Source of the DNA: a phage
DNA length: 64,000 nt
Strand: one strand, 5' to 3'
Sequence record: PZ019085.1
Below the pieces are notes generated by a model. That model had not been told where the DNA came from, did not search any database, and saw only the letters and a list, made by a program, of their open reading frames with translations. This document shows, piece after piece, positions 7,608 through 55,739 of this stretch. How positions within the stretch are numbered: position 1 is the first letter of the stretch; each line of letters opens with the position of its first letter. A program made the translations under genes and the position numbers.

Positions 7608-7625
7608 GGGAGACCGAAGTCTCCC
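7608..7625 (-). terminator. UUCG-tetraloop hairpin between genes 35 and 36
   Basis: GGGAGAC-UUCG-GUCUCCC on the minus strand, 7-bp GC-rich stem. Confidence 0.55.
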
Positions 7626-8766: not shown

Positions 8767-11700
8767 TTATTCAATCCACTCGAATTTAACGGATTTATTC
8801 ACAGGGTCTGGAATAATGCGGACATTACCAATCCTTAAGAAATCCCTTATTGTCAAGTTTCCGATTGTTGCATTATCAGAAGGTAAAGCGCCAATATCAG
8901 AAGGTTGAGGAGGGTTTCCACCATCAAATACCTGAACAAAACTTGACCAAGAATTTTTAGTTTTCTGCCATGTACGTGTCCAACGGGTTGTACGTGCTTC
9001 TGGAGTTGTCGGATAAGTAATCCAATCTTGGTAAAGCGAATCAAGCGTATTACCAAACTGAGTCAATGTACCAGGAGATTTAACTTCTTCACCACGTTCT
9101 AAGTATGGAAGTCCAGTCACTTCATTAGTTTTTTCAACCATTTTAAAATAACCTGGGAACTGGTTATAAGTGGCTGAATCGTTAATATCTATTGACCAGA
9201 ATCCTACAGTATCAGATGTTGGTGCACGGGTATATAAATCAGATGTTTTAGTACCCTGAGAACGAATTCTCGAGTTAACAGTTAAACCACCTGAATTTAT
9301 AGTAGCACCTTTGGCGATGATTAAGCTTTCACCAATCGTTACTTGACCAGATGCATTATTAATAGCCAAAGGACGTAATCCATTAAATCCGCCGGTCTGA
9401 TCACCAGATGCAGTGAGCATAAAATAGGTATTAGCAGCATCATTACGAATAAAGAATCCGTAATCACCGTTTATTGCTCTGAAAGCATTTGCAGACTTGC
9501 TGATGAATTCGCCATTAGCAGTAACTGAACTACCAAATGTTGCTACGCCATTCGCATTCAATGAACCCGAAGCGTTAACATTTATTGGCATTACAGTACC
9601 ATTAATGCTAAACGTTATATTACCAGCTTTATTACGTTGAGAATAAAAGTGATTAGACGTTTCATCGCCAACTTCAAATACGGTAGAACGTGTTGTATCT
9701 GAACCACCACCAAACTGATTTCCCCAAACTCTGATAGTCATCGTCTGTACTGGGTTAGTTCCAGTCTGAGGTCCTTTTTCAAAAATCAGACGAGTTGCCG
9801 TTCCAGTATTAGAAATAGTTAATGTACTATTTGCCGAAACTGATCCACCAAACGTAGCGGTACTAGATGATACAAGAGGGGCACTCAGATTTGTTTGTTG
9901 GGTTAAGGTTAGTGAACCATTAACCGTCTGTGCAATGTCCCTACGAATGAACTGAGATGAATCTAGGCCATCCAATAAATTCGTGTCGGCAGCTTTTGCT
10001 TTTAATGGCAAGTAATTTGCTAATACACGGTTTAATTCATACGGTGATACTGCATAGCTATTTTTCTCGTATAGCTCTAAGTTCTGTGTAGAACCGACTG
10101 TATCATTACCAACGAATGTAATTGAACCGGATGAAGTTTTAACAAAACCTCTTATCGCCGTAGTAGCAGCCCATGTCGGTTCACTCTGCACAATCCATTT
10201 TAAATTTTTTGGAGATACAGCAGTATTTGCTGACGTTCCTGTTACAGTTTCAGCCCGAGTAGCAACCTTAATTACGCCTTCAGACGTTTCAGTGGACTTA
10301 GTCCCTAAAAGCTTTTTAGGAGTAATAAGAACATCATCTAAAGTTCCTGCATTAGATTCTGCCTGGGTCGCTACGCGAAGTGTACCACGTTGTGTTTCAT
10401 TTGCTTTAGAAATATCAAGAGTATAATGGTTCCACAAGGTTCCTTCTTCAATAAGTCCGGAATCAGAATTAACACTGGTACGGTCAGAAGAATCAAAATG
10501 AGTTTTAATTTTCAGTGGAGTCGAGATACGAGTATCATCAGTTCCAGTATCAAATTCAACTTGCGTAGCAATTTCGGCTATGCCGGATAATCCTTCCGTC
10601 GCTCTCCTATCATTTAACGTCTTAGGCGTTACTGCACGTGTATAATCAGTCCCAGCATTAGTTTCTGCTTGCGTAGCAATTTCAATTAAACCAATACGTC
10701 CATCAGTAGAAGTTTTCTTATGTAGTGTTTCAGGAGTTACTACAGCGTGAGAATAACCTGCTTGTGATTGACCAGCAATTACTTCACTATCAACAGCTAA
10801 AATTACTGCACCTTGTTGAGCATAAGTTGCTTTATATTGGTCAAGGGCTTTAGGAGAAATAGTTAAATTATTTACGGTTTTATTATAAACGTTAGTGCCT
10901 GCAGTGCCACGAGTTTCAGCAGGAGTAGCAGAAGTAGTCGATACATATTTAACTATACCAGACAGCGTTTCAGAGCCCTGACGTGCCTGCAATTTCTTAG
11001 GTGTAATAATCGTTGTGTCATCAAGACCAGCATCGGTTTCGGTCTGAGTAGCAATTTCAGCAAGACCGCGACGAGTTTCAGTTGCTGTACGTTCATTTAG
11101 TTTTTTAGGCGTAACAATAGTATCGTCCACAAATGATGCTGTGGAATTCTGGTTAACTTGCGCTGTTGTAGCAATTTTGGCGATACCACGTCGAGATTCA
11201 GTTGCTGTACGATTTGCCAATGTTTCAGGAGTAATAGCAACTTCTTTAGCTGGAGTATTCTCTAAATCAACATTTGCTTGCGCTTGAGTAGCAAGAGCAA
11301 TAACACCTAAACGAGCTCGTGTAGCATCAGATCCAGCATCAACACGTTCTACCGTAGGGACGTTTTGTTGAACAACCCAATAACGTGTACCAGCAACGGT
11401 GTCTTCGATATACGATAATTCTAATACAGGAACATATGAAGTAGTGCCATTGAATTCTAGTTCAGTAACAGAGACCCATTGAGCATCAGGTGGATATTCA
11501 GAACGTTTAGGGAACTGAAGCAATGCAACAGAAGAAGCAATTGTATCACCAGTAGCTGCTTTAATTTTTACTGTTTGGCCTTTACGCATGTAGTTCATTG
11601 AAATTTTAACAGTGTCACCACTCAAAATTCCGGTAGGCAGCGTAAGATTAATAGTTCCAGTTGTAGCATTATTTGTGCCAAAAATAAGAACTTCTTCATT

Positions 11701-15930: not shown

Positions 15931-15953
15931 GGGAGACTTCGGTCTCCCTTTTG
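15931..15953 (+). terminator. intrinsic terminator after gene 32
   Basis: GGGAGAC-UUCG-GUCUCCC followed by TTTTG. Confidence 0.7.
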
Positions 15954-15980
15954 AGTATCTGTAAATTGCCAAAAAAAGTT

Positions 15981-16009
15981 GTTTACTTTTCCTTTAAACA
16001 TGATACTAT
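15981..16009 (+). promoter_or_regulatory. early promoter cassette
   Basis: GTTTAC 15981-15986, 17-bp spacer, TACTAT 16004-16009, then conserved TATCAAC. Confidence 0.55.
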
Positions 16010-16039
16010 AGACTTATCAACAAATTAGAGGAAAATAAA

Positions 16040-31055: not shown

Positions 31056-31078
31056 GGGAGACTTCGGTCTCCCTTTTG
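31056..31078 (+). terminator. intrinsic terminator after ORF 30871-31050
   Basis: GGGAGAC-UUCG-GUCUCCC followed by TTTTG. Confidence 0.7.
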
Positions 31079-31109
31079 TGCGTTTAGGGCAGAAAAAGTT
31101 TAAAAAGAT

Positions 31110-31138
31110 GTTTACTCTCCTGTAGGATGTGTTACTAT
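31110..31138 (+). promoter_or_regulatory. early promoter cassette
   Basis: GTTTAC 31110-31115, 17-bp spacer, TACTAT 31133-31138. Confidence 0.55.
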
Positions 31139-31180
31139 AGACTTGTACCATCTAATCAATAAAACAACCTGGAGAACAAA

Positions 31181-52463: not shown

Positions 52464-53747
52464 TTATTCATCAACGATGATTTTTGGCAATTTAACACCG
52501 AGTAAAACAGACAAGTCTGAACGTCCCGCCATTTTATCCATGTCCCCGCCATCAATTATTCTCGCTTCTTTTTCATCTTTTGCTACTGTGTAAGGATTTG
52601 CTGATAAAGCATATCTAACCAATAATCCAATAGATGGTTGCAAGCTTTCTGGATCAACTACAACTTTAAAAGCACCGACGTGTTCTGGGTCATCTAAATC
52701 TACTCCTTCAGTGTATGGAGCATAAAAGATGGACCCTACAATTTCTTTTTCGCCGATATTTTCTACAACACCCACAATAACGTAATCTAACGGACTGTTG
52801 GTATCGCAATAAAGCGGTAATCCATTTGCCAAGAATCCATAAGCATTTTGTGAAAGATACTTGTCATCTTCTGGCTTATGTTTTAACCAACCTGATGCAG
52901 CAAGAATCGCAGCAGCACGAGCTGAGGCTACACAAAACGTTGCAGTATAAGTTGTCTCTTTTTGAATGTGTGATACCATTTCACACACCATTCGATATAA
53001 TGAACGACCTGCTTCTGGAGCGGATGCATAGCTCAAGTCAATAAATCCGGTATCAGTAATTCCAGTAACTTTATAACGTTTAGATACAGTAATTAAAGAC
53101 TGAAGAATATCTTTATTAATTTCATCAGCCATTTCAGTAGCAAGCAAATCTTCTAAGAAGTTAGGGGCATCAAATCCATTCGCTTCCAAATCTTGCGCTA
53201 ATTCAACCGTGAGACCAGTTTTAAGTTTACGAGATTTGACTGAAGTTTGCCATTTATTAATCTGGAATCTTGCATCAGAAATTTCGCTATCAGAGCTTTC
53301 AAATTTGCTTGTTACCGCTGCATCTGAAAATAACCGTACCTTTAAATGAACGACTGCAATCTGAAGAGCTAATTCTAGATCACTTTCTTGAATATCTGCA
53401 AATGGTGTATCTTCTAACACTTTATAGACGATATTATTATATTTGAAAAAATCGCCTTTATTTAGTGTGACTTTTGATTCTTCTGTGAGTTCAGTAATTT
53501 TTTCTCGGTCTACATATCCAACTTCACCCGCATAAGTAGCACCAGTTTTAAATGTGAATTCGTTATCTGGGTTAAGATATTTGATACCATAAAAAGCAGC
53601 AACAGGCTGATTAGTTCTTTGTGTTGCTACAATGTCAGAATATATTAATTTAGTCGTAGCGCGAGTCAAAGCAACGAGATTTGGGCGACCAACTGAGTTG
53701 CTAGTAGACGTTGTAGATTCACGCAATAATTTTTGGATTTTACTCAT
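52464..53747 (-). CDS. 24: gp24 head vertex protein
   Basis: 427 aa as in T4; paralogous to gp23. Confidence 0.9.
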   Translation of the reverse strand: MSKIQKLLRESTTSTSNSVGRPNLVALTRATTKLIYSDIVATQRTNQPVAAFYGIKYLNPDNEFTFKTGATYAGEVGYVDREKITELTEESKVTLNKGDFFKYNNIVYKVLEDTPFADIQESDLELALQIAVVHLKVRLFSDAAVTSKFESSDSEISDARFQINKWQTSVKSRKLKTGLTVELAQDLEANGFDAPNFLEDLLATEMADEINKDILQSLITVSKRYKVTGITDTGFIDLSYASAPEAGRSLYRMVCEMVSHIQKETTYTATFCVASARAAAILAASGWLKHKPEDDKYLSQNAYGFLANGLPLYCDTNSPLDYVIVGVVENIGEKEIVGSIFYAPYTEGVDLDDPEHVGAFKVVVDPESLQPSIGLLVRYALSANPYTVAKDEKEARIIDGGDMDKMAGRSDLSVLLGVKLPKIIVDE

Positions 53748-53774
53748 TGCATTTTTTCCTTATGTGATATAGAT

Positions 53775-53782
53775 TATTTATA
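53775..53782 (-). promoter_or_regulatory. late promoter for gene 24
   Basis: TATAAATA on minus strand 28 nt upstream of the gene 24 ATG. Confidence 0.6.
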
Positions 53783-53788
53783 AAGATT

Positions 53789-53818
53789 GTTTACAACGTA
53801 TTTGGTATGTGATACTAT
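53789..53818 (+). promoter_or_regulatory. early promoter cassette upstream of ORF 53849
   Basis: GTTTAC 53789-53794, 18-bp spacer, TACTAT 53813-53818, then conserved TATCAAC. Confidence 0.55.
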
Positions 53819-53848
53819 AGACTTATCAACTACAGAGGAGTAAACAAA

Positions 53849-54118
53849 ATGACTAAAGCACGTTTCTTACGAGATACTTTAAAAGTTCTGGAAGCTGAAG
53901 CAGTTAAGTTAGTAGAAAAATATGGTGCAAAAGTTAATGGTAATGCCTTCAACAAAGTATGGATGAAAGTTGATTCTGAAGCTCGAGCTAAAGGTTATTG
54001 GGCCACTGATAAACTTGCGTCATTCAAAAACAAAGATGGTTCTCCGGCATATGTCCAAGAAGGTATGCCTAATTGGCAAAATATTTTGAAAACTTACATT
54101 GAAATTGCACAGAAATAA
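53849..54118 (+). CDS. hypothetical early protein (89 aa) antisense to the head gene block
   Basis: ORF with early promoter 53789-53818 and SD GAGGAG. Confidence 0.5.
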   Translation: MTKARFLRDTLKVLEAEAVKLVEKYGAKVNGNAFNKVWMKVDSEARAKGYWATDKLASFKNKDGSPAYVQEGMPNWQNILKTYIEIAQK

Positions 54119-54128
54119 AACCAAAAAT

Positions 54129-54146
54129 GGGAGACCGAAGTCTCCC
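54129..54146 (-). terminator. intrinsic terminator after gene 23
   Basis: GGGAGAC-UUCG-GUCUCCC followed by AUUUUU on the minus strand. Confidence 0.65.
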
Positions 54147-54170
54147 AAAATAAGATTTAATCAATTAAGA

Positions 54171-55739
54171 TTAGATGCCTTTTACATATACACGACGGAA
54201 GTAAGCGTTCTTACCAAGGCTGTTCAGGATAGACGGCATACCGGACTGGATGCGAGCACCTGGAGCCTGCAGGGAACTTTCAGCAAACGGGTTAACACCG
54301 ATACCGTAACGAGTTTTAAATCCCATTACCGGCTGGAAGTTCTTAGGATCGGAACCACGCAGTGGGGTAAGTGCAACGTAAGGAGCATAGTAAATACCTG
54401 CATCCATTTCGTTAGCGCCTTTGTAACCAACGGTGAAGTAATCCTGTTTAGCATACTGGTCGATGTATACGCGGTATTTACCACCAAGTACACCGGCAAA
54501 TACAGACTTAGTAGTGTCGGTATTAAAACCAGAAGCCAGACCCTGTGCAGCGTAAGAAATACCAGTGTCAACTGAAGCCAGTACGTTAACTACGTTACGG
54601 GAAGCGATAATGAAGTTACCTTCACCACGACCGGTTTGACGAGCAATTTCAACTGCTTCTTTATCAATCTGGAACAACAGAGATTTAAAGCTTTCACCAG
54701 CCCAACGAGCACCACGGATATCAATCGGGTCCTGGAAGTCAAATACGCCAGCTTTAGAACCCGGAGTCAGGGTCATACCGGATTTACCAACCTGTGCCGA
54801 GTAGTTAATCCAATCAACAACTTCACGGTTGATTTCTAGCATAATTTCTGTAGCCAGAATACCGCTCAGTTCAGCATCAGCATCCATACCGTGTACTGCA
54901 CGGAGGTCTTGTGCTAATTCGATAGAGTAAGCAGCTTTCAGCTGGCGAGATTTAGCTTCGATAACTTGTTTATCGATACGGAAGCCCATTTCATTCCATG
55001 GGTTATCGGTAGAACCGTTGAAACCTTCCTGGAGTTCAGCGATAGAAGTAGCCATACCTTCAGCGATTTCTACCAGTGCACCAGCTTCCATTTGTTTCTT
55101 AACTTCTGCATCTAATTTAGTTGCATCAGTTGCACCAGAATCAAGTGTTACGACAGCAGAAGCTTGCAGATATACAGTACCAGTTTCTTGGAAGAAGTGA
55201 GTATAGATATCACCTACAACAGTAGTAGTGTCAGCAGCCAGAGCTGGGAATTTCTTAGCAGCACCCTGACCAGAGAACATCGCGTCTGGGGCATACATCG
55301 GATGGAAAGCTTCTTTAGCGCCAGCAGCGATAGGGTCTTTACCATATACCGCACGGAGAGCAAATACCTGACCGGTAGGGCTGTTCATAGGCTGAACACC
55401 ACAAATATCAAAAGCGATCAGATTAGGAATAGCACGACGAACCATACCCATAACTGCCGGCCCAATCTGGGTTACCGCACCAGAGGTTTGACCTGCTGCG
55501 ATGTTCTGAGCATTATAACCATGGTCACCACCAATTTCAGCTTCGGTCAAGAAAGAACCAAATGCCTGAGCGATTTTCTCGTCTTTATATTCAGGGGATA
55601 CTTCGAAATCTTTTTCCTGGTTTTCGAAGATTTTAGCGATAATAGCCTGCTTGCTATTAGCGATTTCCGGCAGGCCTTCACCTTCCAGCAGTTCTTTCCA
55701 TTTGTCTACGAGCTGAGCTTTAGTTTTGATAGTAGTCAT
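54171..55739 (-). CDS. 23: gp23 major capsid protein
   Basis: 522 aa; MTTIKTKAQLVDKWKELLEGEGLPEIANSKQAIIAKIFENQEKDF... matches T4 gp23. Confidence 0.97.
   Translation of the reverse strand: MTTIKTKAQLVDKWKELLEGEGLPEIANSKQAIIAKIFENQEKDFEVSPEYKDEKIAQAFGSFLTEAEIGGDHGYNAQNIAAGQTSGAVTQIGPAVMGMVRRAIPNLIAFDICGVQPMNSPTGQVFALRAVYGKDPIAAGAKEAFHPMYAPDAMFSGQGAAKKFPALAADTTTVVGDIYTHFFQETGTVYLQASAVVTLDSGATDATKLDAEVKKQMEAGALVEIAEGMATSIAELQEGFNGSTDNPWNEMGFRIDKQVIEAKSRQLKAAYSIELAQDLRAVHGMDADAELSGILATEIMLEINREVVDWINYSAQVGKSGMTLTPGSKAGVFDFQDPIDIRGARWAGESFKSLLFQIDKEAVEIARQTGRGEGNFIIASRNVVNVLASVDTGISYAAQGLASGFNTDTTKSVFAGVLGGKYRVYIDQYAKQDYFTVGYKGANEMDAGIYYAPYVALTPLRGSDPKNFQPVMGFKTRYGIGVNPFAESSLQAPGARIQSGMPSILNSLGKNAYFRRVYVKGI

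What the first reader, a model, noticed from the sequence alone, without database searches (positions are those of the whole stretch)
53789..54146. Small early-promoter-driven gene embedded antisense between major capsid genes 24 and 23
An 89-aa ORF (53849-54118) on the plus strand has a full early promoter cassette (GTTTAC...TACTAT...TATCAAC) and SD GAGGAG, and sits between two minus-strand late structural genes. Its promoter is back to back with the gene 24 late promoter (53775-53782), and the gene 23 terminator hairpin lies just beyond its stop. I do not recall a gene at this position in T4, so this looks like an accessory insertion in the conserved head module. The protein has no motif I recognise.
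Basis: partly seen in the sequence, partly recalled or inferred. Interest (0 to 1): 0.5.

Follow-up and report, generated by a model that had tools for sequence, protein, structure and literature searches.

The report
Small early accessory gene between capsid genes
This is a real but already annotated small phage gene of unknown function: a self-contained early-promoter cassette in the gap between the two main capsid genes of RB69-like T-even phages, the same gap where T4 carries the homing endonuclease gene segD.

Summary
On the plus strand, 53849-54118 is an 89-codon ORF with SD GAGGAG. Its T4-type early promoter (GTTTAC-N15-TGaTACTAT) lies back to back with the gene 24 late promoter. The gene 23 terminator hairpin starts 9 nt after the stop codon.

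The window is a Mosigvirus (RB69-like). The ORF is a genuine gene: dN/dS is about 0.04-0.15, the AlphaFold2 model has pLDDT 94.7, and all 25 family members match PHROG 6003 (function unknown). It sits in this slot, antisense, in about 240 sequenced phages of Mosigvirus, Dhakavirus and Gaprivervirus, annotated "hypothetical protein". Distant homologues lie in arrays of small same-strand ORFs in non-T4 phages.

T2, Karamvirus and Jiaodavirus have an empty gap of about 80 bp here. T4 has the unrelated segD at the same point and in the same orientation. Nolan et al. (2006) had already predicted this early promoter in RB69.

The promoter and hairpin share 21-nt and 18-nt identities with "promoter-early stem-loop" (PeSL) motifs elsewhere in the window. 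That fits the known PeSL/ORFan shuffling mechanism.

No fold or sequence match gives a function. My best inference is a basic (pI 9.6), non-essential early protein that binds a host or phage macromolecule. The finding is ordinary and of low interest.

The parts
52464..53747 (-). Gene 24 (capsid vertex protein), left flank of the slot
   Evidence: 427-aa ORF. Annotated as capsid vertex protein in the near-identical phage G53. 94.8% aa identity to T4 gp24.
53775..53782 (-). Late promoter TATAAATA of gene 24
   Evidence: Read directly. Invariant in five lineages and in the empty-slot phages. Listed as Pl:109573 in RB69 by Nolan et al. 2006.
53789..53818 (+). T4-type early promoter: -35 GTTTAC(A), 17-nt spacer, extended -10 TGaTACTAT. 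The predicted start is near 53825 (inferred).
   Evidence: Conserved in diverged lineages. RB69 counterpart is Pe:109605, HMMER score 29.9, in Nolan et al. 2006. Positions 53810-53830 are identical to 16001-16021.
53835..53840 (+). Shine-Dalgarno GAGGAG, 8 nt before the ATG
   Evidence: Read. A GGAG motif is conserved in the homologous loci.
53849..54118 (+). CDS for an 89-aa basic protein (10.1 kDa, pI 9.6), PHROG 6003, function unknown
   Evidence: PHROG 6003 at 2e-45; 25 of 25 members match. dN/dS 0.04-0.15. AF2 pLDDT 94.7, with H3-25, H31-48, E52-60, E66-70, H76-88. pI.
54118..54147 (-). Intrinsic terminator of gene 23: hairpin 54147..54128 with a UUCG loop, then TTTTTGGTTT on the minus strand. 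It is also the 3' hairpin of the ORF transcript, without a U-tract.
   Evidence: Conserved, or replaced by a different hairpin in VR20. The same 18-nt hairpin occurs at 7608, 15931 and 31056.
54171..55739 (-). Gene 23 (major capsid protein), right flank of the slot
   Evidence: 522-aa ORF. Annotated as major capsid protein in G53.

Best explanation
The feature is a self-contained accessory gene cassette of early promoter, SD and an 89-codon ORF. It sits in the only non-coding gap of the 23-24 capsid block, between the gene 23 terminator and the gene 24 late promoter, and is read from the early strand.

Shown:
- It is a genuine protein-coding gene under purifying selection.
- It is a long-standing resident of this slot in Mosigvirus, Dhakavirus, Gaprivervirus and related uncultured lineages.
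- It is absent from other T-even genera, whose slot is empty or holds a homing endonuclease gene.
- Distant homologues in non-T4 phages lie in arrays of small same-strand ORFs, away from capsid genes.

Inferred:
- Host sigma-70 RNA polymerase transcribes it in the first minutes of infection as a monocistronic mRNA of about 320 nt ending in the shared hairpin.
- The 10-kDa, basic, cysteine-free cytoplasmic protein (three helices with a beta-hairpin between helices 2 and 3; conserved N-G-N-x-x-N at the start of helix 2, and Q70) acts stoichiometrically. It would bind a host or phage macromolecule, either nucleic acid or an acidic protein, for host takeover or counter-defence.
- It is dispensable in the laboratory.
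- The cassette probably reached, or is exchanged at, this slot by the known PeSL-type homologous recombination of T4-like phages. Its promoter and the adjacent hairpin are sequence-identical to PeSL elements elsewhere in the genome.

My confidence is about 0.9 for 'real, early, non-essential accessory gene of PHROG 6003'. It is about 0.3 for the binding/takeover/counter-defence role and about 0.4 for the PeSL route.
For: Gene reality:
- The ORF is intact at similar length (83-93 aa) in 25 members down to 30% identity.
- pN is 0.14-0.24 against pS of 0.67-0.82, giving dN/dS of 0.04-0.15. Against phage G53 there are 3 synonymous and 0 non-synonymous changes.
- AF2 pLDDT rose from 68 with 5 sequences to 94.7 with 25.

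Synteny:
- The gene is always antisense between 24 and 23 in Mosigvirus G53, VR20, WG01, phage 04086 and metagenome contigs.

Insertion point:
- Alignment with the empty slots of T2, EnC15 and KP179, and with T4 segD, places it between the terminator and the late promoter.

Early promoter:
-; conserved across lineages; predicted independently in RB69.

Accessory, non-capsid context elsewhere:
- L007, L008/L009, L011, L012 and ABPH49.

Dispensability:
- The ORF is split in the RB69 reference.
- Truncated forms exist: P0007 (named mogra_95 by NCBI) and P0015 (named 310Ecol104PP_00148 by NCBI).
- About 240 of 1418 gp24-bearing records carry it.

Protein properties:
- Basic charge is conserved: pI is 9.2-9.9 in 24 of the 25 members (P0009 is 8.0).

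PeSL link:
- Identities of 21 nt and 18 nt with the PeSLs at 15931-16021 and 31056-31140.
- Mechanism described in PMC2839356 and PMC4122927.
Against: - There is no direct evidence of transcription, translation or any phenotype.
- The proposed activity rests only on size, charge, timing and genomic context.
- The arrangement is not a canonical PeSL. No stem-loop lies upstream of the promoter, and the downstream hairpin is oriented for gene 23.
- The long vertical residence in this slot (protein identity down to 33%, with gp24 at 70%) shows that the cassette is not being shuffled frequently.
Confidence: 0.75

Rival explanations
1. The function is linked to the capsid. The protein would assist or regulate gp23/gp24 expression or assembly, be packaged as an internal protein, or neutralise a host defence that senses capsid proteins. 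That would explain why it stays between genes 23 and 24.
For: - Strict linkage to the 23-24 slot in every T4-like carrier.
- Weak hits to phrog_8765, 'internal virion protein' (E 0.09 for the window protein; 2 of 25 members, best E 0.0015).
Against: - It has an early promoter, not a late one.
- Homologues in non-T4 phages lie in arrays of small same-strand ORFs with no capsid gene nearby.
- Most T4-like phages with near-identical gp24 (T4 94.8%, T2) lack it.
- The N-terminus has neither the T4 capsid-targeting sequence nor a conserved (L/I)xE cleavage motif (read; the motif definitions are from my own knowledge).
- Linkage is explained just as well by vertical inheritance in a safe intergenic slot.
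Confidence: 0.1
2. The selected element is the promoter, not the protein. Early transcription reads through the U-tract-less hairpin into gene 23 in antisense. This would give 'anti-late' RNA that delays or tunes capsid gene expression, or insulates the divergent gene 24 late promoter.
For: - On the plus strand the hairpin has no U-tract in 4 of 5 lineages, so read-through into antisense gene 23 is plausible.
- The promoter abuts the late promoter.
- Anti-late RNA is a classical T4 observation (my own knowledge, not checked here).
Against: - The ORF is under strong purifying selection at the protein level and folds confidently, so the protein is selected.
- In VR20 the hairpin is a bidirectional terminator with T-runs on both sides.
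- Phages with an empty slot need no such regulation.
- The two roles are not mutually exclusive.
Confidence: 0.07
3. It is a remnant or cargo of a mobile element: a degenerate free-standing homing endonuclease gene, or its DNA-binding domain. The same slot hosts homing endonuclease genes in T4 (segD) and in Serratia phage 4S.
For: - The slot is a recurrent target for homing endonuclease genes.
- The protein is small and basic.
Against: - No similarity to SegD: BLASTP E 0.022 over 17 residues.
- No GIY-YIG, HNH or NUMOD Pfam hit in any of 25 members.
- No endonuclease or DNA-binding-domain fold among the PDB or BFVD matches.
- The length is conserved at 83-93 aa under purifying selection, which is not a decaying gene.
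Confidence: 0.03
4. It is a chance ORF and a chance promoter-like sequence in an AT-rich spacer, not a gene.
For: - Small size.
- No experimental evidence.
- It is split into two tiny ORFs in the RB69 reference.
Against: - dN/dS is 0.04-0.15.
- It is conserved at 30% identity without frameshifts across genera and in unrelated phages.
- AF2 pLDDT is 94.7.
- The promoter, SD and ATG are conserved across lineages.
- The promoter pattern is about 6-fold enriched and strand-specific.
Confidence: 0.01

Closest known systems
PHROG 6003 (hypothetical proteins of T-even relatives, e.g. G53_00183/QBO65322.1, VR20 gp246, VR7ORF190c, WG01 ORF178, RB69ORF188c+189c)
   Same: Full-length match at 2e-45, and all 25 collected homologues match it. 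Same slot and orientation in the T4-like members.
   Different: Nothing differs; the window gene is simply a member. The family has no assigned function.
PeSL (promoter-early stem-loop) plus ORFan cassettes of T4-type phages (Arbiol et al. 2010, PMC2839356; Comeau et al. 2014, PMC4122927)
   Same: - An early promoter fitting the PST/T4 PeSL consensus TTTACW-N17-TAYWAT drives a non-essential ORFan that is present or absent between related phages.
- The promoter (21 nt) and the stem-loop (18 nt) are identical to canonical PeSLs at 15931-16021 and 31056-31140 in the same window.
- Comeau et al. note that PeSLs inside the conserved core accompany plastic, non-essential genes.
   Different: - The composite motif is split. 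The stem-loop lies 3' of the ORF and is oriented as the gene 23 terminator.
- The late promoter of gene 24, not a stem-loop, lies upstream of the early promoter.
- The cassette is anciently fixed in this slot rather than visibly shuffled.
- Mini-circle formation was not tested.
T4 segD (free-standing GIY-YIG homing endonuclease gene between 23 and 24)
   Same: Same insertion point (between the gene 23 terminator and the gene 24 late promoter) and same antisense orientation.
   Different: The protein is unrelated (223 aa against 89 aa, no similarity). The window protein has no nuclease motifs.
Small basic early counter-defence proteins of T-even phages, e.g. TifA (Guegler et al. 2023, PMC10853763)
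   Same: The same kind of gene as TifA is described: a small, basic phage protein. TifA binds RNA and the ToxN toxin. It serves only as a functional analogy.
   Different: - The fold differs. TifA is predicted as a three-stranded sheet plus a C-terminal helix. This protein is a three-helix bundle with a hairpin.
- There is no sequence relation.
- No target is known for this family.

Membership tests
PHROG 6003 | Significant full-length match to the family HMM | tested here: met
   E 2.1e-45, residues 1-89 against profile 1-90 of 90. 25 of 25 homologues match.
PHROG 6003 (T4-like members) | Location antisense between genes 24 and 23 | tested here: met
T4-type early (sigma-70) promoter | -35 GTTTAC, spacer of about 17 nt, -10 TAnnnT with an upstream TGn, followed by SD and ATG on the early strand | tested here: met
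   Conserved in diverged lineages. Listed in the RB69 supplement of Nolan et al. 2006.
T4-type early (sigma-70) promoter | Transcript 5' end mapped early in infection | not testable with these tools
   No transcriptome data for a Mosigvirus were found.
T4 middle promoter | MotA box (a/t)(a/t)TGCTT(t/c)A centred near -30 | tested here: not met
   No TGCTT lies upstream of the -10 in 53780-53812 (read).
PeSL cassette | Early promoter matching the TTTACW-N17-TAYWAT consensus and shared with other PeSLs of the genome | tested here: met
   TTTACA-N17-TACTAT. 21-nt identity with 16001-16021. Consensus taken from PMC4122927.
PeSL cassette | Stem-loop terminator immediately upstream of the promoter, forming one composite motif | tested here: not met
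   The gene 24 late promoter and start lie upstream, with no hairpin there. The shared hairpin is 3' of the ORF, in the gene 23 orientation.
PeSL cassette | Flanks an ORFan that is present or absent between related phages | tested here: met
   The slot is empty in T2, EnC15 and KP179 and occupied here.
PeSL cassette | [quoted passage not shown] | not testable with these tools
   Requires inverse PCR on infected cells (method in PMC2839356).
GIY-YIG / Seg homing endonucleases | GIY-YIG catalytic domain or similarity to SegD | tested here: not met
   No Pfam hit. BLASTP against SegD gives E 0.022 over 17 aa.
T4 internal proteins (IPI-III) | N-terminal capsid-targeting sequence and a gp21 (L/I)xE cleavage site, with late expression | tested here: not met
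   N-termini show no conserved (L/I)xE motif or CTS (motif definitions from my own knowledge). Only an early promoter was found. The phrog_8765 hits are weak.
Cytochrome b5-like heme/steroid-binding domain (PF00173) | Match to the domain model over its length | tested here: not met
   No PF00173 hit in any member. Only a 31-residue resemblance to repeats of P0013, inflated by 5 repeats and limited to the Mosigvirus subfamily.
DUF4859 (PF16151) | Score above the gathering threshold | tested here: not met
   17.9 bits against a cut-off of 22.6. Only the 3 near-identical members hit.

The most novel reading that the evidence does not exclude
The gene's persistence between genes 23 and 24 in three genera is functional rather than historical. 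The early protein would act specifically on the capsid system. For example, it could pre-emptively block a host immune sensor that recognises gp23 or gp24, or time capsid gene expression together with antisense read-through into gene 23.
Probability: 0.08. Interest if true: 0.55.

Novelty: already known. Interest (0 to 1): 0.18.

Why it matters
It matters little as a discovery. The gene is annotated in more than 200 genomes, and its regulatory signals were predicted in 2006.

It does give a clean, well-delimited example of how the T-even core head module tolerates cargo at a single point, between the gene 23 terminator and the gene 24 late promoter. That point has been filled independently by a homing endonuclease gene in T4, another in Serratia phage 4S, and this early ORFan cassette.

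The family is compact, confidently foldable, basic and early. It has no detectable structural relatives and also occurs in non-T4 phages. That makes it a reasonable, low-cost candidate for host-takeover or anti-defence screens.

Tried and rejected
- **Family libraries.** Pfam, NCBIfam and PADLOC scans of the window protein and of distant members gave nothing above threshold. DUF4859, TatB, Omp38 and similar hits are sub-threshold and not family-wide.
- **PDB by sequence profile.** Only coiled-coil or designed-helix noise.
- **Exhaustive HMM search of 1.84 billion representatives.** Nine hits. The two large proteins among them, a Cyt-b5 repeat protein and an Ig-repeat protein, are repeat-inflated and were rejected.
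- **SegD relationship.** Rejected.
- **Rfam on 53600-54300.** Only sub-threshold terminator-like hits.
- **Prophage search.** The lambdoid-context homologue (L008) has no match in complete E. coli genomes.
- **Literature.** Searches for the ORF names, for PHROG 6003 and for Mosigvirus or RB69 transcriptomes found no paper on this gene.
- **TifA.** Considered as an analogue, but the fold differs.

Full report
**1. What is in the sequence**

The window is an RB69-like T-even phage (genus Mosigvirus). The 501 bases around the finding are 99.0-99.6% identical to many Mosigvirus genomes, including GADS24, SF, p000y, G53 and PhAPEC2.

The plus strand carries an 89-codon ORF at 53849-54118. It lies between gene 24 (52464-53747, minus) and gene 23 (54171-55739, minus).

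Upstream of the ORF are these signals:
- GTTTAC at 53789-53794.
- A 17-nt spacer measured from the TTTACA hexamer.
- An extended -10, TGaTACTAT, at 53810-53818.
- GAGGAG at 53835-53840, 8 nt before the ATG.

The late-promoter box TATAAATA for gene 24 is on the minus strand at 53782..53775, 7 nt from the -35 hexamer.

Nine bases after the stop codon lies an 8-bp hairpin with a UUCG loop (54128-54147). On the minus strand it is followed by TTTTTGGTTT, so it is the intrinsic terminator of gene 23. On the plus strand it folds equally well (-13.5 kcal/mol) but lacks a U-tract.

The promoter is not a chance match. The pattern GTTTAC-N15-TGNTANNNT occurs 12 times in the window against 2.06 expected, and 0 of 100 shuffles reach 12. 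All ten exact matches are on the plus strand, which also carries rnlB and the 24.2/24.3 homologues and is therefore the early strand.

A looser scan shows that these promoters share an extended consensus: AAAAAGTT-GTTTAC...GTG(A/T)TACTAT-AGACYTRTCAAC...GAGGA...ATG. The promoter at 53789 fits it fully.

**2. It is a real gene**

- Homologues of 83-93 aa align end to end with almost no gaps, down to 30% identity. M1, K3, F6, G31, N32, N35 and Q70 are invariant, and L14 and N30 nearly so.
- Between moderately diverged copies, synonymous sites are saturated (pS 0.67-0.82) while pN is 0.14-0.24. That gives dN/dS of about 0.04-0.15.
- Against phage G53 there are 3 synonymous and 0 non-synonymous differences.
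- AlphaFold2 confidence rose from pLDDT 68 with five close sequences to 94.7 (pTM 0.81) with 25 diverse ones. The model has helix 3-25, helix 31-48, a beta-hairpin at 52-60 and 66-70, and helix 76-88.
- The protein is 10.1 kDa with pI 9.6 and has no Cys or His. It is hydrophilic, so a signal peptide or membrane segment looks unlikely. Net positive charge is conserved in 24 of the 25 members (pI 9.2-9.9; P0009 is 8.0).

**3. Where else it occurs**

tblastn finds the protein in 240 of 50,697 phage records, and 238 have a single uninterrupted match over at least 80% of the length.

About half are Mosigvirus, at 95% identity or more. The rest are at 30-38% identity. Those sampled are Gaprivervirus (VR20) and Dhakavirus (WG01, phage 04086).

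In each T4-like carrier examined, the gene sits antisense between genes 24 and 23.

Metagenomic T4-like contigs with intermediate identities have the same arrangement:
- P0006, 61%.
- P0005, 70%.
- P0004, 71%.
- P0012, 34%.

The upstream late promoter, -35, -10, SD and the downstream hairpin are conserved in these lineages. In VR20 the hairpin is a different sequence with T-runs on both sides.

More distant members (83-88 aa) are not in T4-like phages. They lie inside long arrays of small same-strand ORFs:
- In a Vequintavirinae phage, ABPH49.
- In contigs carrying T7 0.6-like and Phage_g100 genes.
- Between a primase-helicase gene and Ead/Ea22 in a lambdoid-looking contig.

All 25 members match PHROG 6003, "unknown function". 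The family is small. An exhaustive HMM search of 1.84 billion representatives gave 9 hits, and a profile search of the 5.8-billion-protein index gave 30.

**4. The slot**

About 1418 phage records encode a gp24 homologue, so roughly one in six T4-like genomes carries the ORF.

| Phage | Content of the 23-24 interval |
|---|---|
| T2, Karamvirus EnC15, Jiaodavirus KP179 | 81-85 bp: terminator hairpin, T-run, about 8 nt, TATAAATA |
| T4 | segD (223 aa, GIY-YIG), antisense |
| Serratia phage 4S | Another homing endonuclease gene, same strand as 23 and 24 |
| Krischvirus KFS-EC | Two tiny ORFs |

The multiple alignment shows that the 330-bp cassette here and the 700-bp segD insert in T4 occupy exactly the same point, between the terminator's T-run and the late promoter.

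SegD and the 89-aa protein are unrelated.

The window's gp24 is 94.8% identical to T4 gp24. It is only about 70% identical to gp24 of the other lineages that carry the ORF, whose ORF products are 33-70% identical. The cassette is therefore old, and was either lost or replaced in Tequatrovirus, or the head genes are mosaic.

**5. Prior knowledge**

In the RB69 reference genome the ORF is annotated as two fragments, RB69ORF189c and RB69ORF188c. A +1 indel, a -1 indel and a scrambled 20-nt patch separate them.

The supplementary tables of Nolan et al. 2006 (PMC1524935) already list three features for RB69:
- An early promoter, Pe:109605 (score 29.9), upstream of ORF189c.
- The late promoter Pl:109573 for gene 24.
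- A terminator labelled "23-><-RB69ORF188c".

Other genomes annotate the intact ORF as a hypothetical protein. I found no paper that names the gene or the PHROG, and no Mosigvirus transcriptome.

**6. How it got there and how it is expressed (inference)**

The same 18-nt hairpin, GGGAGAC-UUCG-GUCUCCC, occurs four times in the window. At 15931 and 31056 it is a plus-strand terminator followed 32-36 nt later by an early promoter. That is the composite "promoter-early stem-loop" (PeSL) motif described by Arbiol et al. 2010 and Comeau et al. 2014.

According to those papers, PeSLs flank non-essential ORFans and recombine with one another. They can excise ORFan mini-circles, and when found in the conserved core they accompany plastic adaptive genes.

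The promoter at 53789 shares 21 identical bases (TGATACTATAGACTTATCAAC) with the PeSL promoter at 16001-16021. It also fits the published T4/PST consensus TTTACW-N17-TAYWAT.

The stem of the gene 23 terminator is palindromic and identical to the PeSL stem. It could therefore have served as the homology patch for insertion.

I regard this as the most economical explanation for an early gene embedded in a late block. It is not a canonical PeSL, though. There is no stem-loop upstream of the promoter, and the cassette has clearly been inherited vertically for a long time.

Expression is predicted to be immediate-early, from host sigma-70 polymerase, as a monocistronic RNA of about 320 nt. Whether transcription stops at the hairpin or reads into antisense gene 23 cannot be decided here.

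**7. Function**

Nothing assigns one.
- Pfam, NCBIfam and PADLOC give no hit above threshold.
- A PDB profile search gives only noise.
- BFVD returns only a member of the same family.
- A 31-residue resemblance of the hairpin region to Cyt-b5-like repeats is confined to the Mosigvirus subfamily and inflated by repeats. I judged it chance.

The evidence does support a general class:
- The gene is early (promoter evidence).
- It is dispensable. It is broken in the RB69 reference and appears in truncated forms in two other database entries. It is absent from most T-even genera.
- It is cytoplasmic, small and basic.
- In other phages it travels with arrays of small same-strand ORFs.

This is the profile of host-takeover or counter-defence proteins such as TifA. 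TifA has a different predicted fold and is only an analogy.

I therefore commit, at about 0.3, to a stoichiometric binder of a host or phage macromolecule. The conserved N30-G31-N32-x-x-N35 helix cap and Q70 are the most likely functional surface, and nucleic acid or an acidic protein is the likely ligand.

I hold a capsid-linked role at about 0.1. The arguments against it are the early promoter and the non-capsid context of the distant homologues. I hold a primarily cis or antisense role of the promoter at about 0.07. The argument against that is protein-level selection.

**8. Verdict**

But the slot is not empty in T4, and the gene is neither specific to this genome nor unrecorded.
- It is a member of an already catalogued hypothetical-protein family, in an already described type of regulatory cassette.
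- Interest is low, apart from its value as a tidy candidate for functional screens.

Noticed in passing
window 7608-7625, 15931-15948, 31056-31073, 54129-54146: The identical 18-nt hairpin GGGAGAC-UUCG-GUCUCCC is used four times, twice in each orientation. At 15931 and 31056 an early promoter follows 32-36 nt later (GTTTAC at 15981 and 31110), forming canonical PeSL motifs.
   Followed up: partly
L006 (RB69 NC_004928) 9292-9532; window 53849-54118: In the RB69 reference the ORF is split into ORF189c and ORF188c by a +1 indel, a -1 indel and a scrambled 20-nt patch. This is either a real inactivation in the laboratory strain or a sequencing error from 2003.
   Followed up: partly
L002 330-2894, L003 336-2899, L010 837-3401, L013 838-3397: Gaprivervirus, Dhakavirus and two metagenomic lineages carry two tandem gp24 paralogues next to the ORF. 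Mosigvirus, T4 and contig L021 have one.
   Followed up: no
window 52464-53747 against L005 1324-2607: The window's gp24 is 94.8% identical to T4 gp24, but about 70% identical to gp24 of the other lineages that share the ORF. The head module is closer to Tequatrovirus than the slot content suggests, which implies mosaicism or loss of the ORF in Tequatrovirus.
   Followed up: partly
L017 619-1155 (Serratia phage 4S); L020 776-1098 (Krischvirus KFS-EC): The same 23-24 slot holds a same-strand homing endonuclease gene in phage 4S and two tiny annotated ORFs in KFS-EC. The slot is a recurrent insertion hotspot.
   Followed up: partly
P0006 (L010 3501-3773): JGI names this 90-aa family member 'NADPH-dependent curcumin reductase CurA', an evident mis-annotation.
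   Followed up: no
window 53779-53786 (+): TATAAAGA on the plus strand is one mismatch from the late-promoter box and overlaps the minus-strand TATAAATA of gene 24. It might give weak late transcription of the ORF (read; not tested).
   Followed up: no
window 54099-54575 (+), 53830-53955 (-), 54020-54148 (-): Three mechanical ORFs overlap the region: 158 aa antisense to gene 23, and 41 and 42 aa antisense to the 89-aa ORF. None has any supporting signal, and I take them as spurious.
   Followed up: no
window 53999-54055 (residues 51-69): The segment WATDKLASFKNKDGSPAYV resembles the first beta-hairpin of the Cyt-b5-like repeats in metagenomic protein P0013. This holds only for the Mosigvirus subfamily, and I judged it chance.
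   Followed up: yes
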